Below are positions 14,821 through 53,121 of a stretch of 64,000 nt of DNA, piece by piece. Made by a program: the position numbers and the translations under genes. How positions within the stretch are numbered: position 1 is the first letter of the stretch; every line of letters begins with the position of its first letter. The notes under the pieces are model-generated. The model ran no database searches. It was not told the origin of the DNA and saw only the letters and a list, made by a program, of their open reading frames with translations. Location of the stretch: assembly GCF_056712565.1 (NCBI RefSeq), contig NZ_CM160072.1; one strand, written 5' to 3'.

Positions 14821-15026
14821 ACTTCCTGAGCCGGAACGAAAAGTTTTATCGGAATGCGTGTTCTGGTGAACTTTTGGCTTACGGTTGTGATGTTGTGTTG
14901 TTGTGTTTGCAATTGGTCTGCGATTCAGACCATGGTAGCAAAGCTACCTTTTTTCACTTCCTGTACATTTACCCTGTCTGTCCATAGTGATTAATGTAGC
15001 ACCGCCTAATTGCGGTGCTTTTTTTT
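14821..15026 (+). ncRNA. gcvB: GcvB small regulatory RNA
   Basis: sequence ACTTCCTGAGCCGGAACGAAAAG...GTTGTGATGTTGTGTTGTTGTGTTTGC...CACCGCCTAATTGCGGTGCTTTTTTT matches the known GcvB RNA, including the GU-rich region and terminal Rho-independent hairpin, divergent from gcvA. Confidence 0.9.
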
Positions 15027-19141: not shown

Positions 19142-19349
19142 TGTTCTCTTCTTCAGGTTAAAAAATAAGGCGCAACGAAGATAACAAACCACCGCGTTTA
19201 ATGAAATGAGCAGCCTCTCCCTGACGCAAATTTTGCACAAAAAATAGGCTTTAGTGATTTGTTTTTGTTCAAAATCATGCCGAATCCGTGATCGGGGTAA
19301 AAAAAAGGTTGCATGAAAACGCGAGCAGAGTATAGTGCGCATCCACGGA

Positions 19350-19426
<77 letters not shown>

Positions 19427-19459
19427 ATTAAAATTTGATGAAGTAAAGCAGTACGGTGA

Positions 19460-19536
<77 letters not shown>

Positions 19537-19569
19537 ATCAAAATTTGATGAAATAAAGCAGTACGGTGA

Positions 19570-19632
<63 letters not shown>

Positions 19633-19646
<14 letters not shown>

Positions 19647-19673
19647 ATTTATTAGAATGCTGACAAACCGCAA
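19633..19673 (+). repeat. left 41-bp direct repeat (tRNA 3' end plus downstream), att-like
   Basis: ggcccccgcaaccaatttattagaatgctgacaaaccgcaa, repeated at 50235-50275. Confidence 0.85.
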
Positions 19674-19697
19674 AGCTGCTATTGGCTTGCGGTTTTT
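19661..19697 (+). terminator. Rho-independent terminator after the tRNA operon
   Basis: aaaccgcaaagctgctattggcttgcggtttttt hairpin plus T-run. Confidence 0.6.
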
Positions 19698-20281
19698 TCG
19701 TTTTTACGCTTCCTTACCCGTTTCAGTGAAGCCTGAGACAATGAGTAAACCGTTAATATCCCTCCATCAAAGCCATCCATCTTATTTATATATTAAACAT
19801 ATACCCCATTAATGAATTTCATTTATATATTCTATAAATCAATTTATTTTGGTTATGTTAACATTTCAATATCACAACAGGGCGCTACGCTTATATAATC
19901 ATTGTACAAAAAGCACACAACTTTTTAATTAGTAGAAAAATTAATAATTTTTTGTGAAAGCCCGGACAATAAGTTTAATGAATATCTTAATAGACTCTCA
20001 TACTACCCAATTTCTTAAAAGTGCAAATTTGTGAAGCTTATCCTGTTATTATTTTAAGTTTCATGCCAAATTCTCTCACCAGATAATGCCGCCCTCTTCC
20101 GAAAAATAATCAAGAGGCCAAACAATATCTAAAATGATACAACTGTATCTATTCCCCTGAAAAATACATTATTCATTTGTATATTTTCCTCATCATTGCT
20201 TTTTATTTAAATCATCCGATAATCCCCTGAATATAATTATGTCAATAACCATCAGAAAAAGTGGATGATGAGGAAAAGGAT

Positions 20282-20782
20282 ATGGCTGACAGTTTCCAGA
20301 ATGAAGTTCCCACCGCTCGTGTAAATATCAAGCTTGATCTGCATACAGGCAATGCTAAAAAGAAAGTTGAACTCCCCCTCAAGCTTCTTGCCGTAGGCGA
20401 TTACAGTAACGGAAAAGAGCAACGTCCGCTGTCCGAACGGGACAAGGTTGATATCAATAAAAACAACTTCAACAGCGTCATGGCTGAGTTTTCGCCTGCG
20501 GTTAATTTAACAGTAGAAGATACGCTAAACGGAAACGGTAATGAACAAAATATCGCGCTTGAATTTAAAAGCCTGAAGGATTTTGAACCCGAACAGGTAG
20601 CAAAAAATATTCCGCAACTTCGTGTATTACTCGCTATGCGCAATTTACTACGTGACCTGAAATCCAATCTGCTGGATAACGCAACGTTTCGCCGTGAACT
20701 GGAAAATATTCTGAAAGACCCGACGCTCAGTTCAGAACTGCGTGATGAACTGGCGAAAATTGCGCCGCAGGAGAACGTTTAA
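20282..20782 (+). CDS. tssB: T6SS contractile sheath small subunit TssB
   Basis: MADSFQNEVPTARVNIKLDLHTGNAKKKVELPLKLLAVGDYS, typical TssB/VipA; ATG 20282 after a gaggaaaagga RBS. Confidence 0.9.
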   Translation: MADSFQNEVPTARVNIKLDLHTGNAKKKVELPLKLLAVGDYSNGKEQRPLSERDKVDINKNNFNSVMAEFSPAVNLTVEDTLNGNGNEQNIALEFKSLKDFEPEQVAKNIPQLRVLLAMRNLLRDLKSNLLDNATFRRELENILKDPTLSSELRDELAKIAPQENV

Positions 20783-20840
20783 CCCGAACACGTATTCAGG
20801 TTAAACCGGAGAAGAAAGGATCACTGAAAAGGAAATGCTG

Positions 20841-22379
20841 ATGTCTGTACAACAAGAACATTCCACCTCTGAAACTGCAACACTCACCACCACTGAGTCC
20901 GGCGGCGTTTATCAGTCCCTGTTCGATAAAATTAATTTAACCCCGGTCTCTTCCATTCAGGAAATAGATTTATGGCAAAACAGCGAAACGCTGGCTGATG
21001 CCTCACCCGATGAGCGCGTGACAGCAGCGATTCACGTTCTGCTTTCCTGTCTGGCGAAATCAGGCGAGGACGTGGTTAAGCTCGACAAGAGCCTGCTGGA
21101 TTTTCATATCGACGATCTGGATCAGAAAATCAGTAAACAGCTTGATGCGGTCATGCACCACCCTGAATTCCAGAAAGTCGAGTCGCTGTGGCGTGGTACA
21201 TGGTTCGTCGTACAGCGCACTGATTTTCGCAAAAATGTCAGAATTGAATTGCTGGATATCAGCAAAGAGCATCTGCGTCAGGATTTCGACGACTCCCCGG
21301 AAATCATTCAGAGCGGTTTATATCGTCATACATACATTCAGGAGTACGATACGCCGGGTGGCGAACCTGTTGCCTCATTAATTTCCAGCTATGAATTTGA
21401 TAACAGCCCGCAGGATATTGCCCTGCTGCGCAATATTTCCAGAGTGTCTGCCGCTTCCCATATGCCTTTTATCGGTTCCGTCGGACCGAAATTCTTCCTT
21501 AAAAATTCGATGGAAGAAGTCGCCGCGATTAAAGATATCGGCAACTACTTTGACCGCGCAGAATATATTAAATGGAAGTCGTTCCGCGATACGGATGACA
21601 GCCGCTATGTGGGATTAGTGATGCCGCGAGTGCTGGGCCGTCTGCCCTATGGGCCGGACACGGTGCCGGTACGCAGCTTTAACTATGTGGAAGAAGTCAA
21701 AGGCCCGGATCACGAAAAGTACCTGTGGACAAACGCCTCGTTCGCCTTTGCCGCCAATATGGTGAAGAGCTTTGTGAATAATGGCTGGTGTGTGCAGATC
21801 CGTGGTCCACAGGCAGGTGGCGCAGTAGCCGATCTGCCCATCCATCTTTACGATCTCGGCACCGGCAATCAGGTCAAAATTCCGTCCGAAGTGATGATCC
21901 CGGAAACCCGCGAATTTGAATTTGCCAACCTTGGCTTTATTCCGCTCTCTTATTATAAGAATCGCGATTACGCCTGCTTCTTCTCGGCAAACTCCGCCCA
22001 GAAACCGGCGTTGTATGATACCGCTGACGCCACCGCCAACAGCCGTATTAACGCCCGTCTGCCTTACATCTTCCTGCTGTCCCGCATTGCGCATTACCTG
22101 AAAATCATTCAGCGCGAGAATATCGGTACCACCAAAGACCGCCGCGTACTGGAACTGGAACTGAACACCTGGATCCGCACACTGGTGACGGAGATGACCG
22201 ATCCGGGTGATGAACTGCAGGCGTCTCACCCGCTGCGCGACGGCAAGGTTATCGTGGAAGATATTGAGGACAATCCGGGCTTCTTCCGCGTCAGACTCTT
22301 TGCCGTGCCGCATTTCCAGATTGAAGGGATGGATATCAACCTTTCTCTGGTTTCCCAGATGCCGAAAGCGAAAGCCTGA
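20841..22379 (+). CDS. tssC: T6SS contractile sheath large subunit TssC
   Basis: about 512 aa directly after tssB; start 20835 or 20841. Confidence 0.9.
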   Translation: MSVQQEHSTSETATLTTTESGGVYQSLFDKINLTPVSSIQEIDLWQNSETLADASPDERVTAAIHVLLSCLAKSGEDVVKLDKSLLDFHIDDLDQKISKQLDAVMHHPEFQKVESLWRGTWFVVQRTDFRKNVRIELLDISKEHLRQDFDDSPEIIQSGLYRHTYIQEYDTPGGEPVASLISSYEFDNSPQDIALLRNISRVSAASHMPFIGSVGPKFFLKNSMEEVAAIKDIGNYFDRAEYIKWKSFRDTDDSRYVGLVMPRVLGRLPYGPDTVPVRSFNYVEEVKGPDHEKYLWTNASFAFAANMVKSFVNNGWCVQIRGPQAGGAVADLPIHLYDLGTGNQVKIPSEVMIPETREFEFANLGFIPLSYYKNRDYACFFSANSAQKPALYDTADATANSRINARLPYIFLLSRIAHYLKIIQRENIGTTKDRRVLELELNTWIRTLVTEMTDPGDELQASHPLRDGKVIVEDIEDNPGFFRVRLFAVPHFQIEGMDINLSLVSQMPKAKA

Positions 22380-22396
22380 CCGGGCCGTGGTGTGAT

Positions 22397-23734
22397 ATGA
22401 AAATTCATCGACCACTGTGGGCTGAGGGGACATTCCTGTCCTCTCAGCAGTTTCAGCAGCAGGCCCGCTGGGAAGCGTTCAGCAATGACTGTATTGCGCA
22501 GCTTTGTATTCGCCATCCGTGGGGGATCGCAAACGTGCTCTTTGACCGGGATGCCCTGACGCCCGGAAAGCTGAAAACGCAGGCAGTACGCCTGCGTTTT
22601 GCTGATGGCACGCTGATCGATTCAGACGTGAGTGACGTTCTGCCGCTCGCCTGCGATCTGCGCGCGCTGAAGAACGACAGCGCGATTGTTTTGCTGGCGC
22701 TGCCGCTTGCACATGGTAACGGCGGTAATCTCGGTCAGGGTGAGCAGACTGAAAGACCGCTGCGCTATCGTCAGGAATGGCAAAAGGTGCAGGATATCTA
22801 CGGCAGTGACAGTGAAGATATGGCCGTTGAGCGTCATGCGCTGTCCCTGCGCTTTGCTCATGATAACAATCAGGATTACATCACCTGCCCACTGGCGCGT
22901 CTGGTGCGGGATGTTCAGGGCAACTGGACACAGGATGAGAGCTATATTCCGCCGTTACTGGCGTTTAACGCCCATGACGGGCTGGTACAGCGTCTGGACA
23001 CATTGCTGTTGCAGCTACGGGCGAAGTGCCAGCGTCTGATGGCGATGCGCCGGGAAAGCAACCAGCGTATGGCGGACTTTGCCGTCGCCGATGTCTCCCT
23101 GTTCTGGCTGCTTAACGCGCTGAATTCCGCCGAGCCGGTGCTGAGCGATTTCCTGCGCTACCCGGCTGTCCACCCCGAACTGGTCTGGCGGGAGCTGGCG
23201 AGGCTTGCCGGTGCGCTGCTGACGTTTTCCCTTGAGCATAACGTCAGCGCCGTTCCGCCCTATGTCCACGAATCGCCGTCCACCGTCTTTCCGCCCCTGT
23301 TCTCCCTGCTCAGCGAGCTGCTGGAAGCCAGCCTGCCGTCGCGGGTGATCGCGCTGGATCTGGCGTCCCTGCCGGGCAACCGCTGGAAAGCCGACCTGCA
23401 CGATCCGCGACTGCGGGAAGAGGCCGATTTTTATCTGTCCGTTCGTTCCTCACTGCCTGCGCATCAGGTACTGCATCAGCTACCGCTGGTCTGCAAAATC
23501 GGTGCGCCCGATGATGTCACGCTGCTTATCAACGTGGCGCTGAACGGTGTTCAACTGGTGCCGCTTACCTCGGTTCCGGCGGCGCTGCCGCTGCGGCTGG
23601 AGAACCAGTATTTTGCGCTGGATATGCACAGTGACGCGGCTAAATCGATGCTGGAGTCCGGGAGCTGCATGATTTATGCGCCGGGAACCATGGGCGACCT
23701 GAAACCTGAACTGTTTGCGGTGCTGCGCACATGA
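22397..23734 (+). CDS. tssK: T6SS baseplate protein TssK
   Basis: 445-aa ORF MKIHRPLWAEGTFLSSQQFQQQARWE, the characteristic TssK N-terminus. Confidence 0.85.
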   Translation: MKIHRPLWAEGTFLSSQQFQQQARWEAFSNDCIAQLCIRHPWGIANVLFDRDALTPGKLKTQAVRLRFADGTLIDSDVSDVLPLACDLRALKNDSAIVLLALPLAHGNGGNLGQGEQTERPLRYRQEWQKVQDIYGSDSEDMAVERHALSLRFAHDNNQDYITCPLARLVRDVQGNWTQDESYIPPLLAFNAHDGLVQRLDTLLLQLRAKCQRLMAMRRESNQRMADFAVADVSLFWLLNALNSAEPVLSDFLRYPAVHPELVWRELARLAGALLTFSLEHNVSAVPPYVHESPSTVFPPLFSLLSELLEASLPSRVIALDLASLPGNRWKADLHDPRLREEADFYLSVRSSLPAHQVLHQLPLVCKIGAPDDVTLLINVALNGVQLVPLTSVPAALPLRLENQYFALDMHSDAAKSMLESGSCMIYAPGTMGDLKPELFAVLRT

Positions 23735-24396
23735 AAAAAGATATGGATATCAATATCGATGCGCTGCTGCGCGACACGTTTCTGACGGTGGTGGAACTGC
23801 GTCAGGGAACCACCGTGCGTCACGGTATCGAGCTGTATCGCCACTGTCAGCGGCAGGTGGAACTGGTCCGCGAACGTCTGAAAGATGCCGGATTCAGTCG
23901 GGAGAACGTGGAGCACATAACTTACGCGCAGTGCGCCCTGCTGGACGAAACGGTGCTCAGCCGTAGTGGCATGGACGACGGTCAGGCCATCTGGATGAAA
24001 AACCCACTCCAGTCGCATTTCTTCAACACCCTGCAGGCCGGTGAGCTGCTGTACGAGCGGATGAAGCAGGTGCTACAGGAACCCGCCCCCGCGCAGGCCG
24101 TGCTGACCTGCTTTCACCGTGTCCTGCTGCTGGGATTTCGCGGGCGTTATCAGGATCCGGCAGCCCCGGAGCGCGACCAGCTTATTTCGACGCTCAACGG
24201 GCAGGTCGCGCCATTTGGTGTGCTGCCGGAAACGGCGGTACTGAACGTGCCGTTATCCACCCGTCAGCACCCTTTGCTGCATTCGCCATTTTTCTGGCTG
24301 GTAACACTGGCGCTGCTACTGGCGGGCGTCTGGTGGGGGCTACACCACTGGCTGAATGTACTGGTGGATGAACTGCTGCCGCAAAGCCTGCGTTAA
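23731..24396 (+). CDS. tssL: T6SS membrane-complex protein TssL (DotU family)
   Basis: 221 aa with a single C-terminal TM (FFWLVTLALLLAGVWWGL); overlaps the tssK stop. Confidence 0.85.
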   Translation: MKKDMDINIDALLRDTFLTVVELRQGTTVRHGIELYRHCQRQVELVRERLKDAGFSRENVEHITYAQCALLDETVLSRSGMDDGQAIWMKNPLQSHFFNTLQAGELLYERMKQVLQEPAPAQAVLTCFHRVLLLGFRGRYQDPAAPERDQLISTLNGQVAPFGVLPETAVLNVPLSTRQHPLLHSPFFWLVTLALLLAGVWWGLHHWLNVLVDELLPQSLR

Positions 24397-24408
24397 AGGG
24401 AGTCGTGA

Positions 24409-44084: not shown

Positions 44085-44528
44085 ATGAATATTCAGGCAA
44101 TAAAAGAAATGGTAAATTTAATTTGTAGTTTTTTATTTATATTCTTTCTGTCCTCGGCTTTTGTTTCTTTTGGGTGTTATGCTATTTATGAATTGTTTTT
44201 ATGGAATGATATTATTGTATATAGCTGGGGATATATATTAATTGTCTTTTTACCTTTCACATTATATGTAATGTCGTTTGAGATTTTGTTTTTTGCTATT
44301 AGTGGGCGACGATTGTCTAAAGTAACAATGGTGCGCCTTTGGTTGATAATTAAAATTATTATTGCTTTCTCTATTTGCGCAGTGTTGATTTTTTCTTCAA
44401 TTTACAAAAAAGAATTATTATCTAGAAATTATATTGCTTGTAGTGGTATCCCGTCTGGGTGGATGCCGGGTCTGGCAACGAAATACGTTAAAGAAAAATC
44501 ATTATGCGAAAAAAATGGCAATAATTAA
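44085..44528 (+). CDS. small hypothetical multi-TM protein
   Basis: about 147 aa, four predicted TM helices, extremely AT-rich; possible GTG start at 44067. Confidence 0.4.
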   Translation: MNIQAIKEMVNLICSFLFIFFLSSAFVSFGCYAIYELFLWNDIIVYSWGYILIVFLPFTLYVMSFEILFFAISGRRLSKVTMVRLWLIIKIIIAFSICAVLIFSSIYKKELLSRNYIACSGIPSGWMPGLATKYVKEKSLCEKNGNN

Positions 44529-44897
44529 ATCAATGATGAGGTTATGATGTTTTATCTAAAAAACAATAGAGTAGCGATGTATCAGTAACAGTTAATTTTA
44601 TTTTCAGTGTGAGATTGCTTAATCTTACATGGCAAATAAATCAATGTCATGTAAAACGAAATGTAAATATCACACACTATATTAAAGATGTAATACCCAG
44701 GAAGATGAAGTAACTGACCGGCAATACTATAAGCAAAGTAGTCATTGTTTATTTTTAACAGATGATTGTAATGGTTTTTTAATTGCGCTCATCTTTATGG
44801 GTTATTGTTGTTTTTTACTGGTGTTTTATGAACTGTAAAATATATTTTCTTTTTACTGTTATCTAACTTTTTAGTTAAATGGGAAATAACTCTCTGA

Positions 44898-46658
44898 ATG
44901 GACGACCTGACCCAACGCTACTATGAAGCCGAAATGCGCTACCTGCGTGAAGCGGGTAAAGAATTCGCACAGGCGTATCCCGACCGTGCTGCGATGCTTA
45001 ATCTTGATAAACCCGGCGCACGCGATCCCTATGTGGAGCGCCTGTTCGAGGGCTTCGCTTTTTTAATGGGCCGCCTGCGCGAAAAGCTGGACGACGATCT
45101 GCCGGAACTGACTGAAGGGCTGGTCAGCCTGCTGTGGCCCCACTACCTGCGAACCATCCCGTCACTTTCCGTGGTTGAACTGTCGACAGATCACCGGCAG
45201 ATGAAGCAGAGCGAAACGCTGAGCGATTTTCAGGTATTGTCGCGCCCTGTTGGCGAGCGCAGAACCCGCTGCGTCTACAGTGCCACGCGTGATATCACGC
45301 TGCATCCGCTGGCGTTGCCGGACGTGTCATTGCAATATGAACCGGACGGACGCTCGGTTATCCGTCTGCGCTTTGCGTGCGGCCCGCTGGTTGGTGACTG
45401 GTCGCAGATCGATTTATCCCGCCTGCCGCTCTATCTCAATGCCGACAGCCCGGTAGCCTGTGCGTTGCACCGGGCTTTAACGCTTGGCACGCAGCAGTTC
45501 TGGCTGCGTCTGCCGGGGCAGGATCGCCGGATGCTTGGCGCACACTTTTCCCCGATGGGCTTTGAGGATGATGACAGGCTCTGGCCAAAAGGTGAGTCAG
45601 CCTTCAGCGGTTACCAGTTGCTGCTGGAGTATTTCACCTTCCGCGAGAAGTTTATGTTCGTGGCGCTGAACGGGCTGGAGCAGGTTGCATGGCCGGAGGG
45701 GATAACCGGCTTTGAGATTGACGTGGTGCTGAACGAGAACTGGCCTCACGACCTGCCGTTTGACAGCGATAATATCCGTCTGCACTGCGTGCCGGTCATC
45801 AACCTGTTCCCGCTCGAAGCCGATCCGTTACACCTTTCGCCACTGGAAAACGAATTTCTGCTACGCCCGATGCGCATTCAGGACGGGCATACCGAGATTT
45901 ATTCCGTCGACAACATTATTTCTTCGCGCCATACCGGCAGTCAGGCATATGTCCCCTTTTCCAGCTTTCGTCACCGGGGCGGGATGCTGCGCCACGATGC
46001 GCCGGAACGCTATTACCACACGCGGGTAAAGCGCGGCCCTTCCGGCTTGCACGACACATGGCTGATTCTGGGCGGCGATGCGTTTGATTCCGACCGGATG
46101 CTGGAGGATGAAACCCTGTCCTTAAGTCTGACCGGCACCAACGGGCAGCTTCCCCGTAAAGCCTTACAGAGCACCCTGCTCGATACGCCAGTTCATGCCT
46201 CACAGAACGTCCTGCGGGTGCGCAACCTGTGCGCCCCGACGCAGCCCTGCTATCCCCCGGCGCGTGACCGCTTCCACTGGCGGGTGCTCAGCCACCTCGG
46301 TTCTAACTTTTTATCGATGATGGATAACGCCGAAATTCTGCGCGGCACGCTGGCGCTGTACGACTGGACCGAAAGCGAGATGAACCGCCGTCGTCTGGAG
46401 GCGATTGTCGACGTTCAGCACAGCCTGATACAGCGTTTTGAAAGAGGCTTTCTGCTGCGTGGCGTGGATATTCAGGTGACGCTGGACAGTAACGGCTTTG
46501 CCGGAGAAGGTGATATCACGCTGTTTGGTGAACTGCTGCACCGCTTCTTCGCACTGTATGCCGATATCCACTTATTCACTCAACTGACCTTAATTCTGCA
46601 ACCCACAGGAAAGTGCCTGCAATGGACAGAGCATCACAGCCAGCGCGTACCGGGCTGA
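44898..46658 (+). CDS. tssF: T6SS baseplate protein TssF
   Basis: 586 aa MDDLTQRYYEAEMRYLREAGKEFAQAYPDRAAMLNLDKPGARDPYVERLFEGFAFL. Confidence 0.9.
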   Translation: MDDLTQRYYEAEMRYLREAGKEFAQAYPDRAAMLNLDKPGARDPYVERLFEGFAFLMGRLREKLDDDLPELTEGLVSLLWPHYLRTIPSLSVVELSTDHRQMKQSETLSDFQVLSRPVGERRTRCVYSATRDITLHPLALPDVSLQYEPDGRSVIRLRFACGPLVGDWSQIDLSRLPLYLNADSPVACALHRALTLGTQQFWLRLPGQDRRMLGAHFSPMGFEDDDRLWPKGESAFSGYQLLLEYFTFREKFMFVALNGLEQVAWPEGITGFEIDVVLNENWPHDLPFDSDNIRLHCVPVINLFPLEADPLHLSPLENEFLLRPMRIQDGHTEIYSVDNIISSRHTGSQAYVPFSSFRHRGGMLRHDAPERYYHTRVKRGPSGLHDTWLILGGDAFDSDRMLEDETLSLSLTGTNGQLPRKALQSTLLDTPVHASQNVLRVRNLCAPTQPCYPPARDRFHWRVLSHLGSNFLSMMDNAEILRGTLALYDWTESEMNRRRLEAIVDVQHSLIQRFERGFLLRGVDIQVTLDSNGFAGEGDITLFGELLHRFFALYADIHLFTQLTLILQPTGKCLQWTEHHSQRVPG

Positions 46659-47701
46659 CCGACCGGCTGGCCCCGGATATTGCGCGGATCAATTTTTACC
46701 GTTTTTGCCAGTTGCTGGAACAGAGCCAGCAGAAAGCGCCGCTGGGCAGTACCGACAACCCCGCCGCCGATGCGGTGCGTTTTCGCCCCCATCCCGGAAT
46801 GGGCTTTCCGGTCAGCGAGTTAAAGAACGTTGAACGTGACGTGGACAATCCCGACGCGCCACCCACGGTGCGCACCACCTTTCTCGGCCTGTACGGCGTG
46901 GATTCACCGCTGCCCACCGCCTATCTGGACTACATTACCCAGCGTCATGACGGACATGACGCAGTGATGGCGTTTCTCGATATTTTTAACCATCGCTTTA
47001 TCACCCAGTATTACCGCATCTGGCGCAAATATAACTACCCGGCGTCGTTTGAAGCAGGTGCCGTGGATGACATTTCCCGTTGTCTGCTGGGGTTAATCGG
47101 GCTGGGTATTCCCGGCAGCGAGAACCATATCGCCACGCCTGTATCCCGTTTTCTGGCCCTGCTCAGCGTGATGCGCCTGCCCACCCGCACGGCTGAAGGC
47201 GTCACGGCACTGGTGGGGCTGCTTGCCCCGCTGACGAAAGCCACGGTGGTGCCTCACGATCCGCAGCCTGTAATTCTCCCGGCCCCTGCGGGTCTGTCAA
47301 AAAATTCACGCATCAGCCTGAAAACGCGAACGCTGCTGGGGCGTACCGGTACCGACGTCAACAGCCAGTTGCTGCTGAAACTGTATACCGAAGATGCCGC
47401 AGAAGCACGTGGCTGGCTGCCCGGCGGGCAACTGCACAGCGATTTGCTGGTGCTGCTGCGCGTTTATCTGGGCTGGCGCTGTCAGGCCCGTCTGCAACTG
47501 ACGCTGCCCGTCAGCCTGTTGCCTGCTGCCCGGCTGGGAAAACAGCGTGTACAGATTAGCCGTACCGGCATCCTTCGCGCCTCCTTTGCCGCGCCCGCGA
47601 CCGGAACAGTGACGGTCAGTCTGGGGCGTTATCAGGGATTAATACCCGCTTTTTCCATTCGTAACAGGGAGAGTATGACTCATGTTTCCTATTCGTTTTA
47701 A
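46613..47701 (+). CDS. tssG: T6SS baseplate protein TssG
   Basis: about 360 aa following and overlapping tssF; start GTG 46613 or ATG 46622. Confidence 0.85.
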   Translation: MPAMDRASQPARTGLTDRLAPDIARINFYRFCQLLEQSQQKAPLGSTDNPAADAVRFRPHPGMGFPVSELKNVERDVDNPDAPPTVRTTFLGLYGVDSPLPTAYLDYITQRHDGHDAVMAFLDIFNHRFITQYYRIWRKYNYPASFEAGAVDDISRCLLGLIGLGIPGSENHIATPVSRFLALLSVMRLPTRTAEGVTALVGLLAPLTKATVVPHDPQPVILPAPAGLSKNSRISLKTRTLLGRTGTDVNSQLLLKLYTEDAAEARGWLPGGQLHSDLLVLLRVYLGWRCQARLQLTLPVSLLPAARLGKQRVQISRTGILRASFAAPATGTVTVSLGRYQGLIPAFSIRNRESMTHVSYSF

Positions 47702-48218
47702 ACGTCCGGCGTTGCTCTGTATGGCGATGCTGACGGTTGTTCTGAGTGGCTGCGGGCTGATTCAGAAAGTGGTGGATGAATCGAAAAGCGTGGCCTCAGC
47801 CGTTTTCTACAAACAAATCAAAATACTGCATCTCGATTTCTTCTCCCGCAGCGCCCTGAATACGGATGCGGAAGATACGCCGCTTTCCACGATGGTGCAT
47901 GTCTGGCAACTGAAAACCCGCGAAGATTTTGACAAGGCGGATTACGACACCCTGTTTATGCAGGAAGAGAAGACGCTGGAGAAGGACGTACTGGCAAAAC
48001 ACACCGTCTGGGTAAAACCGGAAGGCACGGCATCCCTGAATGTGCCGCTGGATAAAGAGACGCAGTTTGTCGCCATTATTGGGCAGTTTTATCACCCTGA
48101 TGAAAAAAGCGACAGCTGGCGTCTGGTGATCAAAAGGGACGAACTGGAGGCCGACAAGCCGCGCTCGATTGAACTGATGAGAAGCGACCTGCGACTGCTG
48201 CCTCTCAAGGATAAATAA
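47682..48218 (+). CDS. tssJ: T6SS outer-membrane lipoprotein TssJ
   Basis: 178 aa with signal peptide and lipobox LSGC. Confidence 0.85.
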   Translation: MFPIRFKRPALLCMAMLTVVLSGCGLIQKVVDESKSVASAVFYKQIKILHLDFFSRSALNTDAEDTPLSTMVHVWQLKTREDFDKADYDTLFMQEEKTLEKDVLAKHTVWVKPEGTASLNVPLDKETQFVAIIGQFYHPDEKSDSWRLVIKRDELEADKPRSIELMRSDLRLLPLKDK

Positions 48219-48221
48219 CCG

Positions 48222-48650
48222 ATGTCGACACCTTCCTTATATGAAATGCTGACGTTCAGTTTCAGCGGCGAGTTACCGCTGGAACAGATCAGCGAGCGGG
48301 ATCAGCTTATCCTTTCCGTGATGGACAATATGCAACGCATTATCAACTGCCGGGCAGGCACGCTGGCGCATTTGCCGGATTACGGTCTGCCGGATCTCAG
48401 TCTGATCCATCAGGGGATGGCTGCGGGTATTCATGGCCTGATGCGTCAGATTGAAGAAACACTGCTGCGTTATGAACCACGCCTGAGTCAGATACAGGTG
48501 GAATTACTCCCCCAGCCCCGTCCGGGGCATCTTAATTACCTGATCCACGCGCAGCTTCCCGATACCGGCTGGATACGCTTTGATGGCGTATTTTCTCCGG
48601 AAGGACGAATTGTTCTGCGTCATCTCAAACAGCAGGAGCGGGCGTACTGA
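48222..48650 (+). CDS. tssE: T6SS baseplate protein TssE (gp25-like)
   Basis: 142 aa MSTPSLYEMLTFSFSGELPLEQISERDQLILSVMDNMQRIINCRAGTLAHLPDYGLPDLS. Confidence 0.85.
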   Translation: MSTPSLYEMLTFSFSGELPLEQISERDQLILSVMDNMQRIINCRAGTLAHLPDYGLPDLSLIHQGMAAGIHGLMRQIEETLLRYEPRLSQIQVELLPQPRPGHLNYLIHAQLPDTGWIRFDGVFSPEGRIVLRHLKQQERAY

Positions 48651-50026
48651 TGGCAAGTAACGCGAATTTTATCAGCCAGTTCGTCATGGGCGGCGATCCC
48701 TGTACGTATAAGGAATCCGGTGAACTGCAGGCTGAAATGAGTAAACTGACTCACCCGGCCCGGCCAGACGTGGACTGGCGCCAAGTGGAAAAACTCAGCC
48801 TCGCGCTGTTCCGGCAAAATGGCGTGGAACTACAGACGCTGGTCTGTTACGTACTGGCGATAACCAGACGGCAGGGGCTGGCAGGGATGGCAGACGGACT
48901 CGGTTCACTGGATATACTGCTCCAGCGCTGGGCTGACTTCTGGCCGGTACAGGTACATTCCAGAATATCACTGCTCAGCTGGGTCACAGAAAAAATGCAG
49001 CAGGCACTGAGAACGCTGGATATTCAGTATCAGGATCTGCCGCAGATCTACCGTTGTGTACAGCATCTTTCTACCATAGAAACCACGCTGCAACAGTGTG
49101 AACTGTGGCATATGACGAAGCTGGACGTATTGTCCGGGCAGTTTCGCAATACCGCATTGCGTCTGGAACGGCTGGCGCCTCAGGGAGCGGAAACCACTAT
49201 CACTCCCCCTGAATTACCCCGCCGGGAAATGAATCAACCGAAAAAGTCAGAGGAAAGTCCACAGCCGGTTTTTGCAACCAGATCCGTTCAGCAAAACGAT
49301 AAGGATGCCAGTCCACCCGTTCCATCCCCTGAAATCTCCCGGCAGCGGACATGGCCGATATTTATGGCCGGAATGGTTGTGATGGCCGGTCTCGGCGGAA
49401 CAGGATTATGGGGCTGGTCGCAGCTTAATCAGCCGGACGCGCTAATCCAGCGAATACAACTGTCTGTCATGCCGTTGCCGCAGTCGCTGGAGAGCGGCGA
49501 ACTGGCAAAGCTGGATGTAAAGGATAAGGCGCTGCTGGCTCAGGACAGAACAATTGCGGCAAGTCAGATGCAACTGGAGCAGTTAAACAAATTGCCTGCC
49601 CGCTGGCCACTGGAGCAAGGATATCGCCAGCTACGCCAGCTTGATGCCCTGTGGCCGGATAATCCTCAGGTCAGGGCGCTGAACGCGCAGTGGCGCAAAC
49701 AGCGGGAGCTGAGCGCCCTGTCTGCTGAGGCACTGAATGGCTATGCTCAGGCGCAGAGCCAGCTACAGCGCCTGTCGGCGCAGCTGGATGCACTGGATGA
49801 ACGTAAGGGGAGATATCTGACCGGTTCGGAACTAAAAACGGCGGTGTACGGCATCCGGCAGTCGTTAAAGGAGCCGCCGCTGGAAGAACTGCTTCGGCAA
49901 CTGGAAGAGCAAAAACAGACCGGAGAGGTTTCGCCAACGCTGTTGACGCAAATTGATACCCGGTTAAATCAGTTGTTGAATCGCTATGTCATTTTACTGG
50001 ATACGAAGGTGGAACAAAGTCAGTAA
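48650..50026 (+). CDS. ImpA_N-domain membrane protein (VasL/TagA-like T6SS accessory)
   Basis: 458 aa; N-terminal ImpA_N-like region, central TM (IFMAGMVVMAGLGGTGLWGW), C-terminal coiled-coil-like Q/L-rich region; overlaps the tssE stop. Confidence 0.65.
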   Translation: MASNANFISQFVMGGDPCTYKESGELQAEMSKLTHPARPDVDWRQVEKLSLALFRQNGVELQTLVCYVLAITRRQGLAGMADGLGSLDILLQRWADFWPVQVHSRISLLSWVTEKMQQALRTLDIQYQDLPQIYRCVQHLSTIETTLQQCELWHMTKLDVLSGQFRNTALRLERLAPQGAETTITPPELPRREMNQPKKSEESPQPVFATRSVQQNDKDASPPVPSPEISRQRTWPIFMAGMVVMAGLGGTGLWGWSQLNQPDALIQRIQLSVMPLPQSLESGELAKLDVKDKALLAQDRTIAASQMQLEQLNKLPARWPLEQGYRQLRQLDALWPDNPQVRALNAQWRKQRELSALSAEALNGYAQAQSQLQRLSAQLDALDERKGRYLTGSELKTAVYGIRQSLKEPPLEELLRQLEEQKQTGEVSPTLLTQIDTRLNQLLNRYVILLDTKVEQSQ

Positions 50027-50234
50027 ACATCGGGGGATTTATGTACCAATAAGGGATATGTGACCTTGCCATTTTTTAAAATGGAGTCTCTGTGTACAAA
50101 AAAAGAGAGGAACAGGCCATTCGATCTACTCGTTGATTCACATCAGATAATGAGTGTATATTTCGGTAGATAGCTTGGGTTCGGGAACAGTGAATACCTT
50201 AAGTTTCAAAAGATTGGATTAACCTCTTGACTGT

Positions 50235-50275
50235 GGCCCCCGCAACCAATTTATTAGAATGCTGACAAACCGCAA
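50235..50275 (+). repeat. right 41-bp direct repeat, followed by a terminator-like hairpin
   Basis: identical to 19633-19673; followed by aaaccgcaatgtgttctacaaattgcggttttttt. Confidence 0.85.
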
Positions 50276-50327
50276 TGTGTTCTACAAATTGCGGTTTTTT
50301 TGTATTTAAAATCTTTGTTCGCTGAAC

Positions 50328-51284
50328 TCACAACACGTTTTTTATCTCCCTTCCTGCGAAGTAATCAATTATCGACTGGGCAACGTGTATCCCGGTTTGC
50401 TGGTATGACTCAACGGTGGCGGCCGCGATATGCGGCGTTGTAATGATATTTTTGGCATGTAGCAGTGGGCTAAATTGCGCCAACGGTTCAGAGCTAAACA
50501 CATCCAGCGCCGCAAACACATTTCGTTCTTCAATCACCTGAAGTAAAGCGCCCTCATCCAGCAACTTTCCCCTTGCGGCATTGATGATCAGAGCACCATT
50601 GCGCATCATCGACAAATATTTATGACTAATGAAGTTCTCCAGCTCAGAAGAAAAAGGCAAAAGAACAATGATGACATGCGACTGCATAAAGATATCTTCA
50701 ATTGATACAAACTGAACTCCAGCTTTGTCAGCAACCTGATAGTCGGGTTGTTTGTCAAAAGCTAAAAGCTCAACATCAAAACCGGATAACCTTTTCGCCA
50801 GAGTTTTACCTATATTACCGTAGCCAACCAGGCCAATCCGTTTCCCTTGTAATTCACAGCCATGCGACTCACCCCAGTAGCCATTTTGCATCGCATGATA
50901 GCTGCCAGGGATATTTCTCATGCTCGCGAAGATAAGTCCAATGATAAATTCCGCAACCGCATTTGAATTAATCCCAACCGCATTATTGACAACAATACCG
51001 GATTGCTGTGCCGCACGAAGATCAATATTGTCTATCCCCGTCCCGAATCTCGATATTATTCTCACACCAGGCAGCAATGATAGCGTGTCCGCCTGATAAC
51101 CATCTTTTCCGGCGATGACCGCGCAAATAGATTCTCGTAATGCAGTGGATTCTGATTTAAGCAGATGCTCCACATTATTCTTAATAATAAGATTAAAATT
51201 ATTCTCTCTTAGCAACTTGCTGGCGGAAACACAGCGTGCTGAAAAGCTGGGGAAGGTGACCAGAACATTTTTCATAGCGGACAC
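50328..51284 (-). CDS. D-isomer-specific 2-hydroxyacid dehydrogenase family protein
   Basis: 318 aa with NAD-binding GLVGYGNIGKTLAKR motif; AT-rich. Confidence 0.75.
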   Translation of the reverse strand: MSAMKNVLVTFPSFSARCVSASKLLRENNFNLIIKNNVEHLLKSESTALRESICAVIAGKDGYQADTLSLLPGVRIISRFGTGIDNIDLRAAQQSGIVVNNAVGINSNAVAEFIIGLIFASMRNIPGSYHAMQNGYWGESHGCELQGKRIGLVGYGNIGKTLAKRLSGFDVELLAFDKQPDYQVADKAGVQFVSIEDIFMQSHVIIVLLPFSSELENFISHKYLSMMRNGALIINAARGKLLDEGALLQVIEERNVFAALDVFSSEPLAQFSPLLHAKNIITTPHIAAATVESYQQTGIHVAQSIIDYFAGREIKNVL

Positions 51285-51346
51285 TCACTTCAAAGAACGC
51301 CACCCCAAAAGATGGCGTGACCGGTTACTGTATTTATATTTTGAAA

Positions 51347-51943
51347 TTATGAATTTGCTTTAATGCCGAGTGCACCTCCTGGATGATATAAGCCGAAATC
51401 AGCACGAGTAAATTTTTTCAATTCAGAGAGTGCAAGCGCCACCGCATCACCAACAACCAGAACAACAGTCGACGAGCATGACGGTGCTAAACCTAAATTA
51501 TCCGCCTCACTTTTGACGGGGATTTCAACAGATAAATCACAACTTATCGCAAGCGATGAGTGATGACTGCGGGTAAAAGAGATCAAATAATTACCCATTT
51601 TTTTCAAACTAGGCAGTGTCGCCAGGATTTCCGCCGTCTCACCACTGTTTGAAATAAGAATAACAACATCGTCTTTCGCCACCATTCCAAGGTCGCCGTG
51701 TACCGCTTCCGTACCGTGAACAAAAAACGAGGGAGTTCCGGTACTGGCAAAAGTTGCTGCGAGTTTTCTGGCAATAATACCGGACTTACCAACACCAATA
51801 AAAACAACTTTTCCCTGACAAGATTGTAATACTTTAATTAAATTAGCGAATTCAGAAAGTGGGGAATAAATAACCTCTTCTACTGCTTTAAGTTCGTTAT
51901 GCATAAAATGTTTAATGAGATAGATAAGATCCGTGTTATTCAT
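51347..51943 (-). CDS. SIS-domain sugar-phosphate isomerase-type protein
   Basis: 198 aa VVFIGVGKSGIIARKLAATFASTGTPSFFVHGTEAVHGDLGMV. Confidence 0.7.
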   Translation of the reverse strand: MNNTDLIYLIKHFMHNELKAVEEVIYSPLSEFANLIKVLQSCQGKVVFIGVGKSGIIARKLAATFASTGTPSFFVHGTEAVHGDLGMVAKDDVVILISNSGETAEILATLPSLKKMGNYLISFTRSHHSSLAISCDLSVEIPVKSEADNLGLAPSCSSTVVLVVGDAVALALSELKKFTRADFGLYHPGGALGIKANS

Positions 51944-51945
51944 TT

Positions 51946-53121
51946 TTATTCTCCCTGATTAATATTTTTAATTACACTCACAAGACGCGTAAGCCCCATA
52001 TATAATTTTTCTCGACCGCAGGCCAGGTTCAGACGAAGGTAGCCCTCCCCCTCCGTTCCATAGACATGCCCCGCCATAATGCCCACTTTGCCTTCATGAA
52101 TTAATCGACTGTAGAATTCATCAAAAGGATAACCAATAGCAGAACAATCTATCCAGGAAAAATAGCAACCATCAGCTGGCCTTACGATCAATTCTGGAAT
52201 ATTTTCATTCAGATACTGCTGGGTGAATTGAATGTTAGAGGCAATATGTGCCTTTAATGACTTTAACCATCCCTCACATTCGTTATAGGCAATAATAGTT
52301 GCAATTATATTCAGTACTGATGGGGAGTTTACAAAATCGCGATACCTCGATATCGTTCTGAACTTATGATTAAAATTATCGTCAGTTGAAATCATATACG
52401 ATCCTGTTAGTGCAGGAACATTAAATGTTTTCGATATCGAGTTAAATACTACTACTTTTTCTTTTTTTATTTTAAGCGCGGATGTAAAGCTACGATTAAA
52501 AACAAAATCACTATGGATTTCATCTGAACATAACCAGACATTATGCCTTGTACAGCTTGCAGCGATTTTATGCAGTTCTTCTTCCGACCAGACTGTTCCT
52601 GTCGGGTTATGAGGATTACATAATAACACCATCTTTGCGCTTTTAATCTTAAGATCAAAATCTTGCCAGTTGATAGCGTAGCCCCCCTCATTTTTTATAA
52701 TCAAAGAGGCTGTCAGAATATTTCGCTCGCTATGTTTAATTACATCAAAAAATGCATTATAGACAGGTGTAAAAACGAGAATATTATCACCATGCGATGT
52801 CAATAACTCTATTGCTTTTGCAATAGAGTACATCACACTGGGGCTATAGGTTATCCATTCAGGTTTAATATCTGTTTGATATTGTTGATAATACCAGTTT
52901 ACTATCGCATTCAGATATTCACCATGTTGCCAACGACTGTACCCTAAAATCGGGTGTTCCAGGCGTTTTTTTAATGCTCTGGTGATAGCGTCTGGTATCG
53001 GAAGATCCATATCTGAAATAGAGAATGGTAGTACATCTTTTACACCAAATCTGTCCTCGCAAAAGTCCCATTGGGTACAATATGTTCCTTTGCGGGAAAC
53101 AGGAGTATTAAAAACATCCAT
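51946..53121 (-). CDS. PLP-dependent class I/II aminotransferase (MalY/PatB-like C-S lyase)
   Basis: 391 aa; SISKTFN PLP-lysine motif. Confidence 0.7.
   Translation of the reverse strand: MDVFNTPVSRKGTYCTQWDFCEDRFGVKDVLPFSISDMDLPIPDAITRALKKRLEHPILGYSRWQHGEYLNAIVNWYYQQYQTDIKPEWITYSPSVMYSIAKAIELLTSHGDNILVFTPVYNAFFDVIKHSERNILTASLIIKNEGGYAINWQDFDLKIKSAKMVLLCNPHNPTGTVWSEEELHKIAASCTRHNVWLCSDEIHSDFVFNRSFTSALKIKKEKVVVFNSISKTFNVPALTGSYMISTDDNFNHKFRTISRYRDFVNSPSVLNIIATIIAYNECEGWLKSLKAHIASNIQFTQQYLNENIPELIVRPADGCYFSWIDCSAIGYPFDEFYSRLIHEGKVGIMAGHVYGTEGEGYLRLNLACGREKLYMGLTRLVSVIKNINQGE

What the first reader, a model, noticed from the sequence alone, without database searches (positions are those of the whole stretch)
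19647..50275. Complete T6SS island inserted at the 3' end of the third initiator tRNA-Met, flanked by 41-bp direct repeats and lacking an integrase
K-12-type synteny (mltA-metZWV / amiC-argA-recD-recB) is interrupted. The 41-bp repeat ggcccccgcaaccaatttattagaatgctgacaaaccgcaa occurs at 19633-19673 and 50235-50275, each followed by a terminator-like hairpin of different loop sequence. Between them lie all 13 T6SS core genes plus PAAR and a TagL-like OmpA-domain anchor. No integrase, transposase or phage gene is present, so the island looks immobilised. The gene order resembles the hcp-clpV-vgrG-centred clusters of Enterobacteriaceae.
Basis: partly seen in the sequence, partly recalled or inferred. 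Interest (0 to 1): 0.7.

Follow-up and report, generated by a model that had tools for sequence, protein, structure and literature searches.

The report
Known E. coli metV T6SS island
This is the well-described type VI secretion ("T6SS-1", PAI-metV) island that about a quarter of E. coli strains carry next to the third initiator-tRNA gene; it is an ordinary, already known feature, here shown to be the integrase-less relic of a mobile element.

Summary
An exact 41-bp direct repeat (19633-19673 and 50235-50275) brackets a 30.6-kb cluster with all 13 T6SS core genes, TagL, TagA and two PAAR genes, and no integrase or transposase. The window is 100% identical to E. coli ATCC 11775.

The feature is already known. 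It is the T6SS-1 module of PAI-CFT073-metV (GI-7 of IMT5155), present at metV in about 1,310 of 5,426 complete E. coli genomes.

- The break in K-12 synteny is 36.2 kb and composite. A 5-gene PTS/antiterminator (paf) module at 50328-55557 lies outside the repeats.
- The primary repeat is only the 14-17 nt tRNA 3' end. The other 27 nt are identical only in some lineages.
- Both hairpins are copies of a terminator that belongs to the attL arm of a family of tRNA-fMet-specific P4-type integrase elements.

Entomohabitans teleogrylli carries the same T6SS (95-97% DNA identity; flanking genes about 75%) at the same site, with that integrase intact.

Decay in this strain: the integrase and mucR are deleted, and the Tle4-like lipase and its Tli4 immunity gene are frameshifted.

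Interest is low.

The parts
19350..19646 (+). metZ-metW-metV, three identical initiator tRNA-Met(CAT) genes; metV (19570-19646) is the integration target
   Evidence: ARAGORN; Rfam; K-12 annotation
19633..19673 (+). Direct repeat copy 1: last 14 nt of metV plus 27 nt of the element's attL arm
   Evidence: Exact match; junction table
19647..19750 (+). Remnant of the attL arm of a tRNA-fMet-specific integrative element. It includes the terminator hairpin 19665-19698 (stem AAACCGCAA/TTGCGGTTT, 13-nt loop, T-run). Homology to integrase-bearing elements stops at ...GAGACAATGAGTAAAC
   Evidence: Alignment A1; fold
19751..20257 (+). AT-rich (28.7% GC) spacer upstream of tssB. It occupies the place of the ~4.5-kb integrase segment of the Entomohabitans island and is conserved in E. 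coli state C and D islands. Presumed promoter region, not tested
   Evidence: sigma-70-like sites only slightly above shuffles
20282..24396 (+). tssB (20282-20782), tssC (20841-22379), tssK (22397-23734), tssL short form (23731-24396)
   Evidence: NCBIfam equivalogs above cut-off; TssK full-length match to EAEC TssK 5M30
24409..26061 (+). tagL-like accessory protein, 550 aa, with a C-terminal OmpA-type peptidoglycan-binding domain
   Evidence: residues 425-547 match solved T6SS OmpA-family domains 7RJJ/5M38/7BBA
26119..31939 (+). hcp/tssD (26119-26610), clpV/tssH (26802-29447), vgrG/tssI with DUF2345 C-terminus (29459-31939)
   Evidence: VgrG residues 1-478 match 2P5Z (CFT073 c3393 per PMC6730261) at 1051 bits
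31959..34788 (+). Variable cargo 1, decayed. The Tle4-like lipase is split into 31959-33125 and 33107-33718 by a 10-bp deletion after ~33100. The Tli4-family immunity gene is split into 33693-34526 and 34495-34788 by a 1-bp insertion at ~34480
   Evidence: Pfam alpha/beta-hydrolase hit; intact E9 homologue matches PDB 4R1D
35252..36650 (+). Small PAAR protein (35252-35512) and a conserved 378-aa protein of unknown function (35514-36650)
   Evidence: annotation
36660..41616 (+). tssM (36660-40013) and tssA (40006-41616)
   Evidence: EAEC TssM 6IXH/6HS7 at 943 bits; TssA matches 6RJU/4YO3/4YO5
41622..44528 (+). Variable cargo 2 (low GC). PAAR-domain protein of 525 aa with an uncharacterised C-terminal region (41622-43199), plus two small ORFs (43274-43828, 44085-44528) that are candidate immunity genes
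   Evidence: Pfam PAAR motif only; no NCBIfam hit; no meaningful PDB hit; GC 0.32-0.40
44898..50026 (+). tssF (44898-46658), tssG (46622-47701), tssJ (47682-48218), tssE (48222-48650), VasL-domain tagA-like gene (48650-50026)
   Evidence: annotation
50091..50123 (+). 5' stub of a Ros/MucR-family regulator gene. About 660 bp were deleted between TTCGA microhomologies. The gene is intact in state-D E. coli islands and in Entomohabitans
50235..50275 (+). Direct repeat copy 2: displaced 14-nt metV 3' fragment (50235-50248, the attR core) plus 27 nt of the paf module's own attL-arm-like leader
50267..50301 (+). Second terminator hairpin (same stem, different 13-nt loop). In T6SS-free strains it is the terminator directly after metV
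   Evidence: Fold
50328..55557 (-). paf/sugar module outside the repeats (CFT073 c3405-c3410). 2-hydroxyacid/phosphoglycerate dehydrogenase (50328-51275), KpsF/GutQ-type SIS isomerase (51347-51943), MalY/PatB C-S lyase (51946-53121), MalX-like PTS EIICB (53121-54701), BglG/LicT-type antiterminator (54733-55557)
   Evidence: Annotation; NCBIfam; literature PMC2831201, PMC8882828
55815..57068 (-). amiC; K-12 homology resumes at 55814

Best explanation
WHAT IT IS
The region 19647-50248 is the T6SS-1 module of the known ExPEC island PAI-metV.

HOW THE MACHINE WORKS (by homology to the EAEC Sci-1 system, not tested here)
- It encodes a contractile antibacterial injection machine.
- The TssJ-L-M envelope complex is anchored to peptidoglycan by TagL.
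- TssE-F-G-K, VgrG and PAAR form the baseplate and spike.
- TssA primes polymerisation of the Hcp tube and TssB/C sheath.
- The VasL-domain TagA holds the distal end.
- ClpV recycles the contracted sheath.
- Toxins ride on VgrG (a Tle4-type lipase, broken in this strain) and on PAAR (a 525-aa PAAR protein of unknown activity).

HOW IT GOT THERE (inferred)
- It is the relic of an integrative element whose P4-type tyrosine integrase recombines with the last ~14-17 nt of tRNA-fMet genes.
- Integration rebuilt metV and supplied an element-borne terminator hairpin behind it.
- The original 14-nt tRNA end was displaced to the far boundary (50235-50248).
- In this strain the recipient site already held an older integrase-less module (paf) whose leader carries a homologous hairpin.
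- The repeat therefore looks 41 bp long. The extra 27 nt are homologous arm sequence that is identical only in some lineages.
- The E. coli version later lost the integrase segment. The ATCC 11775 lineage also lost mucR and the Tle4/Tli4 reading frames.
- Without an integrase the module cannot excise by itself. It is gained or lost by recombination.
For: IDENTITY
- The window is 100% identical to ATCC 11775.
- All 13 core genes are present.
- TssK, TssM, TssA and TagL match solved EAEC-type parts. The VgrG N-terminus is near-identical to 2P5Z/c3393.
- The literature places this cluster downstream of metV: PAI-CFT073-metV, ETSS2 of strain W, and T6SS1/GI-7 between mltA and 'serA-1'.

POPULATION
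- metV-amiC in 3,500 genomes, metV-paf in 597, metV-T6SS in 1,312, out of 5,426.
- This T6SS DNA family is in 1,306 genomes, about one copy each.

ATT STRUCTURE
- All 8 T6SS-positive loci examined end in CCTCTTGACTGT|GGCCCCCGCAACCA, followed by the recipient's native post-metV sequence.
- The repeat is 17 bp in state D, about 15 bp in GPEC657, and 41 bp in the window, 536, S13 and MS1266.

INTEGRASE ORIGIN
- Entomohabitans teleogrylli has mltA, then tRNA-fMet, then the same arm, then a 405-aa integrase, then the same T6SS.
- The integrase scores 486 bits on NF007246 (cut-off 434) and has Arm-DNA-bind_3, Phage_int_M and Phage_integrase domains.
- T6SS DNA identity is 95-97.5%, against 73-78% for the flanking genes.
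- Integrase relatives at 92%, 88% and 70% identity all sit directly after a tRNA-fMet 3' end. All have the same hairpin and AATGAGTAGA motifs but carry other cargo.
Against: - No secretion or killing was tested.
- The right junction of the Entomohabitans island is off the contig, so its repeat is unseen.
- Between the shared arm and tssB the two islands share nothing. T6SS homology starts only 24 bp before tssB. The Entomohabitans integrase could therefore belong to a backbone that acquired the T6SS separately.
- No E. coli complete genome retains this integrase, so its former presence in E. coli is inferred.
- The same integrase-less module sits in both K-12-type and paf-type sites with the same left breakpoint. 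A single simple integration followed by decay does not explain that.
- Which of the locus states are ancestral was not resolved.
Confidence: 0.8

Rival explanations
1. One reading: one integrase-mediated insertion created a 41-bp target duplication, so the 41-mer is the att site and bounds everything foreign between mltA-metZWV and amiC.
For: The 41-mer is exact and occurs only twice. It starts inside the tRNA 3' end, as att cores do.
Against: The repeat is only 17 bp where the T6SS sits in a K-12-type site, and about 15 bp in GPEC657. A further 5.5 kb of non-K-12 DNA lies beyond the right copy. The 27 extra nt belong to two homologous element arms.
Confidence: 0.07
2. The T6SS at metV is ancestral to E. 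coli and was never 'inserted' within the species. The T6SS-free states, including K-12, are deletions between the repeats.
For: About 18 T6SS-free genomes, including E2348/69 and Q5, carry exactly the hybrid sequence expected from recombination between the two copies. Q5 flanks are 99.1-99.7% identical to the window. Many islands are visibly decaying.
Against: 3,500 genomes have a different, K-12-type terminator directly after metV and no scar. Core GC is 0.58-0.63 against about 0.51-0.55 in the flanks. The island is 95-97% identical to one in another genus whose flanking genes are about 75% identical.
Confidence: 0.12
3. The T6SS cluster never had its own integrase. It spread only by homologous recombination of flanking DNA. 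The integrase in Entomohabitans belongs to an unrelated element that landed at the same tRNA.
For: Nothing is shared between the arm and tssB in the two genera. The DNA after the integrase gene resembles generic tRNA-Asn island backbones in E. coli. The same integrase family carries unrelated cargo elsewhere.
Against: The E. coli island begins with ~105 nt of that family's attL arm and ends with the displaced tRNA fragment. Those are the two footprints of site-specific integration. L020 has no second tRNA fragment between the integrase and tssB, which argues against tandem insertion there.
Confidence: 0.2

Closest known systems
PAI-CFT073-metV of uropathogenic E. coli CFT073 (c3385-c3410; Lloyd et al. 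2007, as cited in PMC2660368, PMC2907695, PMC6315130)
   Same: Same chromosomal site (downstream of metV, between mltA and amiC). Same two-part content: T6SS plus the c3405-c3410 PTS module. The VgrG N-terminus is near-identical to c3393 (2P5Z). No integrase or transposase.
   Different: The cargo differs. PMC6730261 reports a Tle3-family lipase for CFT073. Here the lipase is Tle4-like and frameshifted. That cargo variant is in only 185 genomes.
E. coli T6SS1 of APEC/ExPEC (GI-7 of IMT5155; APEC TW-XM; 'ETSS2' of E. coli W)
   Same: Same cluster type next to tRNA-Met between mltA and the dehydrogenase gene called 'serA-1' (PMC4232414; PMC3032704). The Tle4-type cargo is reported for TW-XM/UTI89 (PMC6730261).
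   Different: Strain-level decay. W has an IS insertion. ATCC 11775 has intact core genes but broken tle4/tli4 and a deleted mucR.
EAEC Sci-1 T6SS (the structural and mechanistic model system; located in the pheU island of EAEC)
   Same: Same gene order and accessory genes (TagL, TagA). Full-length matches to solved TssK, TssM, TssA and VgrG1 structures and to the solved peptidoglycan-binding domain.
   Different: A distinct lineage. It is too divergent for megablast, and TssK shows many substitutions. It sits at a different tRNA locus and carries Tle1 cargo (PMC6730261).
P4-type tyrosine-integrase genomic islands inserted in tRNA 3' ends, and their integrase-less relics
   Same: Insertion at the tRNA 3' end, displaced tRNA fragment as distal repeat, atypical GC, element-borne arm next to the tRNA.
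   Different: The integrase is gone from every E. coli copy. It survives in the Entomohabitans copy.

Membership tests
Canonical type VI secretion system (T6SSi) | All 13 core components TssA-TssM are encoded | tested here: met
   NCBIfam equivalog/subfamily hits above cut-off for TssA, B, C, D (Hcp), E, F, G, H, I (VgrG), J, K and L. TssM scores 263 bits, below the cut-off of 388, but aligns over residues 88-1105 to solved EAEC TssM at 943 bits.
Canonical type VI secretion system (T6SSi) | Hcp/VgrG secretion and contact-dependent activity | not testable with these tools
   Needs an Hcp secretion assay and competition assays.
E. coli T6SS-1 / Sci-1-like clusters (Bingle group C; 'i1' from memory) | Gene order tssB-C-K-L-tagL-hcp-clpV-vgrG ... 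tssM-tssA ... tssF-G-J-E-tagA, with a TagL peptidoglycan anchor and short-form TssL | tested here: met
   Annotation; TssL 'short form' model at 285 bits; TagL C-terminal domain matches solved T6SS OmpA-family domains; group C assignment of the PAI-metV T6SS in PMC2907695 and PMC6730261. No TssB/C tree was built here.
E. coli T6SS-1 / Sci-1-like clusters | vgrG-linked phospholipase (Tle) plus immunity cargo, followed by PAAR | tested here: met
   Lipase and Tli4-family genes directly follow vgrG, then a PAAR gene. Both cargo genes are frameshifted in this strain.
PAI-CFT073-metV | Located immediately downstream of metV, between mltA and amiC, and absent from K-12 | tested here: met
PAI-CFT073-metV | Contains both the T6SS genes and the c3405-c3410 PTS/antiterminator genes | tested here: met
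   PMC2831201. CFT073 itself was not fetched; 536 and other ExPEC loci were.
tRNA-targeting integrative genomic island | Insertion at the tRNA 3' end, with the displaced 3' end as a direct repeat at the distal boundary | tested here: met
   The 14-nt fragment is invariant at the right end of 8 of 8 T6SS-positive loci.
tRNA-targeting integrative genomic island | Integrase gene adjacent to the tRNA | tested here: not met
   None in the window or in any complete E. coli genome at this site. Present in the homologous Entomohabitans island. The window is therefore a relic, not a functional member.
tRNA-targeting integrative genomic island | Base composition different from the backbone | tested here: met
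   Core blocks GC 0.58-0.63, cargo 0.32-0.44, flanks about 0.51-0.55.

The most novel reading that the evidence does not exclude
The metV locus of this strain is a tandem array of two integrase-less relics (T6SS-1 and paf) of one family of tRNA-fMet-specific integrative elements. Such relics would still be moved in trans by an incoming or resident integrase of that family (accretion-mobilisation). This would explain three things: how one integrase-less T6SS module with a single left breakpoint occupies both K-12-type and paf-type sites; why it is 95-97% identical in an insect-gut genus; and why precise 'scar' alleles exist.
Probability: 0.3. Interest if true: 0.4.

Novelty: already known. Interest (0 to 1): 0.15.

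Why it matters
The island is a textbook accessory locus of extraintestinal pathogenic E. coli, so finding it adds nothing new. The modest added value is evolutionary:
- The boundaries are now defined to the base.
- The '41-bp att site' is shown to be a 14-17-nt core plus homologous element arms.
- An integrase-bearing sister island in another genus gives a concrete, testable origin for a widespread integrase-less T6SS island.
- For users of the E. coli type strain, the VgrG-linked lipase effector and its immunity gene are frameshifted.

Tried and rejected
- The primary PAI-metV papers (Lloyd 2007 and 2009) could not be read by PubMed or PMC id. Statements about them come from citing papers.
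- The simple terminator scan found none at 19300-20300, because its loop limit is 8 nt. ViennaRNA folding was used instead.
- Pfam and NCBIfam gave nothing for the 378-aa ORF, for the C-terminal part of the 525-aa PAAR protein, or for the two small downstream ORFs. PDB hits to TRPV3 for the PAAR protein (E about 0.006) were judged spurious matches to hydrophobic helices.
- TagA/VasL has no solved relative by sequence.
- A search for the Entomohabitans integrase segment in E. coli hit only generic tRNA-Asn island backbones. The idea that some E. coli retain the integrase at metV was rejected.
- Walking the Entomohabitans contig did not reach the right junction.
- Of the first 60 TssB-related loci from other species scanned for tRNAs, only L020 has tRNA-Met upstream. 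L080-L099 were not scanned.
- Rfam found only GcvB and the three tRNAs.
- No TssB/C tree, Fur-box analysis or phylogroup mapping was done.
Full report
1. OBSERVATION

The 41-mer occurs exactly twice in the window, at 19633-19673 and 50235-50275. None is expected by chance.

ARAGORN and Rfam find three identical tRNA-Met(CAT) genes at 19350-19646. They are the metZ-metW-metV initiator tRNA operon of K-12.

The repeat consists of the last 14 nt of metV plus 27 nt downstream. After a 13-nt divergent stretch, identity resumes (TTGCGGTTTTTT). So a whole hairpin is duplicated, with the same stem and a different loop. Both copies fold as terminator-like stems followed by U-runs.

2. IDENTITY OF THE WINDOW AND GENE CONTENT

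The window is 100% identical to E. coli ATCC 11775 = DSM 30083, the species type strain.

The RefSeq annotation and my NCBIfam scans give the following between the repeats:
- tssB, tssC, tssK, tssL (short form)
- an OmpA-domain TagL-like gene
- hcp, clpV/tssH, vgrG
- a lipase and Tli4 cargo
- a small PAAR gene and a 378-aa unknown
- tssM, tssA
- a 525-aa PAAR-domain protein with two small ORFs
- tssF, tssG, tssJ, tssE
- a VasL-domain (TagA-like) gene

Twelve core families score above the curated cut-offs. TssM falls below its cut-off but aligns almost end to end with the solved EAEC TssM (943 bits). No integrase, transposase or phage gene is annotated.

K-12 homology does not resume at the right repeat. 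It resumes at 55814, the amiC stop codon. Between 50328 and 55557, on the minus strand, lie five non-K-12 genes:
- a 2-hydroxyacid/phosphoglycerate dehydrogenase
- a KpsF/GutQ-type isomerase
- a MalY/PatB C-S lyase
- a MalX-like PTS EIICB
- a BglG/LicT-type antiterminator

This is the c3405-c3410 block of CFT073 (PMC2831201). Its regulator and permease have been named pafR/pafP (Baum 2014, cited in PMC8882828).

4. IT IS A KNOWN ISLAND

The T6SS downstream of metV has been described several times:
- as PAI-CFT073-metV (cited in PMC2660368 and PMC2907695)
- as 'ETSS2' of E. coli W (PMC3032704)
- as T6SS1/GI-7 of IMT5155, between mltA and 'serA-1' next to tRNA-Met (PMC4232414)

PMC6315130 tabulates PAI-CFT073-metV as c3385-c3410, 25 CDS, 0 transposases and 0 integrases. 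PMC2907695 and PMC6730261 place it in T6SS phylogenetic group C, which is E. coli 'T6SS1'.

Sequence comparison with solved structures agrees:
- VgrG residues 1-478 match 2P5Z (CFT073 c3393) at 1051 bits, and EAEC VgrG1 at 680 bits.
- TssA, TssK and TssM match EAEC Sci-1 structures over their full lengths.
- The TagL C-terminus matches solved T6SS peptidoglycan-binding domains.

5. POPULATION PICTURE

Junction-specific searches of 5,426 complete E. coli genomes give:
- metV directly next to amiC (K-12 type, state A): 3,500 genomes
- metV directly next to the paf module (state B): 597 genomes
- metV next to tssB-tssC: 1,312 genomes

Of the T6SS-positive genomes, at least 942 continue into the paf module as in the window (state C). 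Others join a K-12-type amiC flank (state D; examples ECL27977 and TK3889).

The T6SS DNA family itself is in 1,306 genomes, essentially one copy each. So in E. coli it lives only at metV.

Many copies are decaying:
- large internal deletions
- tssM split by ISEc12 in S13
- tssM-tssA missing in TK3889
- clpV frameshifted in GPEC657

6. WHAT THE REPEAT REALLY IS

In all eight T6SS-positive loci examined, the module ends with ...CCTCTTGACTGT|GGCCCCCGCAACCA. This is a 14-nt copy of the metV 3' end. What follows is whatever natively follows metV in that background:
- In state D it is the K-12 terminator, so the repeat is 17 bp.
- In GPEC657 (state C) it is the paf leader ACACCTATGATG..., so the repeat is about 15 bp.
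- Only in the window, 536, S13 and MS1266 do both copies share the next 27 nt. TUM13770 has the same right-hand copy, but its left end was not fetched.

T6SS-free state-B strains carry several leader alleles (ACACTTATGATG..., ATACTTAGAATG...). About 18 genomes, including Q5 and EPEC E2348/69, carry ATTTATTAGAATGCTGACAAACCGCAA joined to the paf-type loop. That is exactly the product of recombination between the window's two repeats. Q5 is also the closest state-B strain to the window on both flanks, at 99.7% and 99.1%.

7. ORIGIN

A TssB-based scan of one genome per species found a single close relative outside E. coli: Entomohabitans teleogrylli, at 98% amino-acid identity. All others are 79% or lower.

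Its locus reads as follows:
- csdA-csdE-tcdA-mltA
- two tRNA-fMet genes
- a hairpin and arm
- a 405-aa P4-type tyrosine integrase (NF007246 at 486 bits, cut-off 434; Arm-DNA-bind_3, Phage_int_M and Phage_integrase domains)
- an Integrase_1-domain ORF
- the same T6SS, through VasL and a Ros/MucR gene

T6SS core blocks are 95-97.5% identical to E. coli islands. That is within the E. coli-to-E. coli range of 95.5-99.6%, and the closest match is state D. The flanking housekeeping genes are only 73-78% identical. This is a clear horizontal-transfer signature.

The closest relatives of the integrase (92%, 88% and 70% identity) all lie directly after a tRNA-fMet 3' end. One is at the argG-side tRNA-fMet locus of Salmonella. 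All are preceded by the same hairpin (AAACCGCAA-N13-TTGCGGTTTTTTTT) and AATGAGTAGA motifs, and they carry unrelated cargo.

Alignment A1 shows three things:
- The left end of the E. coli T6SS module (19647-19750) is the first ~105 nt of this attL arm, with homology ending at ...GAGACAATGAGTAAAC.
- The paf leader has the same hairpin.
- K-12 has a different terminator.

The window has no integrase remnant, and no complete E. coli genome has this integrase. The 508-bp AT-rich spacer that replaces it is shared by state C and state D islands at 91.7% identity. The integrase segment was therefore lost, or swapped out, once.

8. INTERPRETATION

Shown directly:
- the identity and completeness of the T6SS core
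- the site
- the modular composition of the insert
- the 14-nt invariant distal fragment
- the homology of the arm
- the integrase-bearing sister island

Inferred:
- The E. coli module descends from an integrase-bearing element.
- The paf module is an older relic of the same family.
- The extra 27 nt of identity arose by recombination or gene conversion between homologous arms.
- The Q5/E2348-69 alleles are deletion scars.

The order of states A-D, and how one integrase-less module reached two kinds of recipient site, remain open. Helper-integrase mobilisation is the most interesting option that is not excluded.

9. STRAIN-SPECIFIC DECAY

Relative to strains E9 and ST95-32, the window has a 10-bp deletion after ~33100. 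This splits a 589-aa Tle4-like lipase into 388-aa and 203-aa ORFs. The intact homologue matches PDB 4R1D, which I recall as the P. aeruginosa Tle4-Tli4 complex.

Relative to E9, the window also has a 1-bp insertion at ~34480. This splits the 364-aa Tli4 immunity gene.

About 660 bp containing mucR are deleted between TTCGA microhomologies at ~50119-50123.

The two low-GC cargo regions (31.1-37.0 kb and 41.9-44.9 kb) are the parts that differ between islands.

10. VERDICT

Interest is low.

Noticed in passing
window 50328-55557 (minus strand): A five-gene PTS/antiterminator/C-S-lyase/dehydrogenase module (paf; CFT073 c3405-c3410) lies outside the repeats. It is absent from K-12 and present without the T6SS in about 600 genomes. 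It has no distal tRNA fragment, and it replaces the whole 73-bp K-12 metV-amiC spacer.
   Followed up: partly
window 31959-34788: The VgrG-linked Tle4-like lipase and its Tli4 immunity gene are both frameshifted in the type strain (10-bp deletion after ~33100; +1 T at ~34480). RefSeq annotates the pieces as separate intact genes.
   Followed up: yes
window 50091-50123: A stub of a Ros/MucR-family regulator gene remains. The rest (~660 bp) is deleted between TTCGA microhomologies. The gene is intact in state-D E. coli islands and in Entomohabitans.
   Followed up: yes
window 41622-44528: A 525-aa PAAR-domain protein has an uncharacterised, apparently hydrophobic C-terminal region. Two small downstream ORFs sit with it in a 32-40% GC block. 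This is a candidate new effector/immunity set with no family or structure match.
   Followed up: partly
window 19751-20257: A 508-bp, 28.7% GC non-coding spacer lies upstream of tssB. It is conserved in E. coli islands but wholly replaced by the integrase segment in Entomohabitans. Likely regulatory, not analysed further.
   Followed up: partly
L020/L102/L103 (Entomohabitans teleogrylli NZ_LLXO01000037.1): An insect-gut enterobacterium carries the E. coli-type T6SS-1 at the same mltA/tRNA-fMet site with an intact P4-type integrase. T6SS DNA is 95-97.5% identical to E. coli, against about 75% for flanking genes. It has different cargo (TseH-like; PAAR with a CdiI_5-type immunity gene).
   Followed up: yes
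L104, L107 (metagenome contigs), L106 (Salmonella enterica): Relatives of that integrase always follow a tRNA-fMet 3' end with the same hairpin arm, but carry TraI_2 relaxase or defence-like cargo. In Salmonella the site is the argG-side tRNA-fMet gene, not the metZWV operon.
   Followed up: partly
L009 3071-3147 (E. coli Q5): The metV copy of strain Q5 has a C-to-T change in the D-loop region (AGCAGCCTGG becomes AGCAGCTTGG), while its metZ and metW appear standard.
   Followed up: no
L015 (S13), L016 (TK3889), L018 (GPEC657), L006 (ECL27977), L005 (TUM13770): Many E. coli T6SS-1 islands are inactivated in different ways: ISEc12/ISEc52 in tssM, loss of tssM-tssA, a clpV frameshift, a large internal deletion, and an IS21-family insertion at the right end.
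   Followed up: partly
window 14821-15026: GcvB small RNA (Rfam RF00022, 199 bits) lies between gcvA and ygdI. This is ordinary K-12-type content.
   Followed up: no
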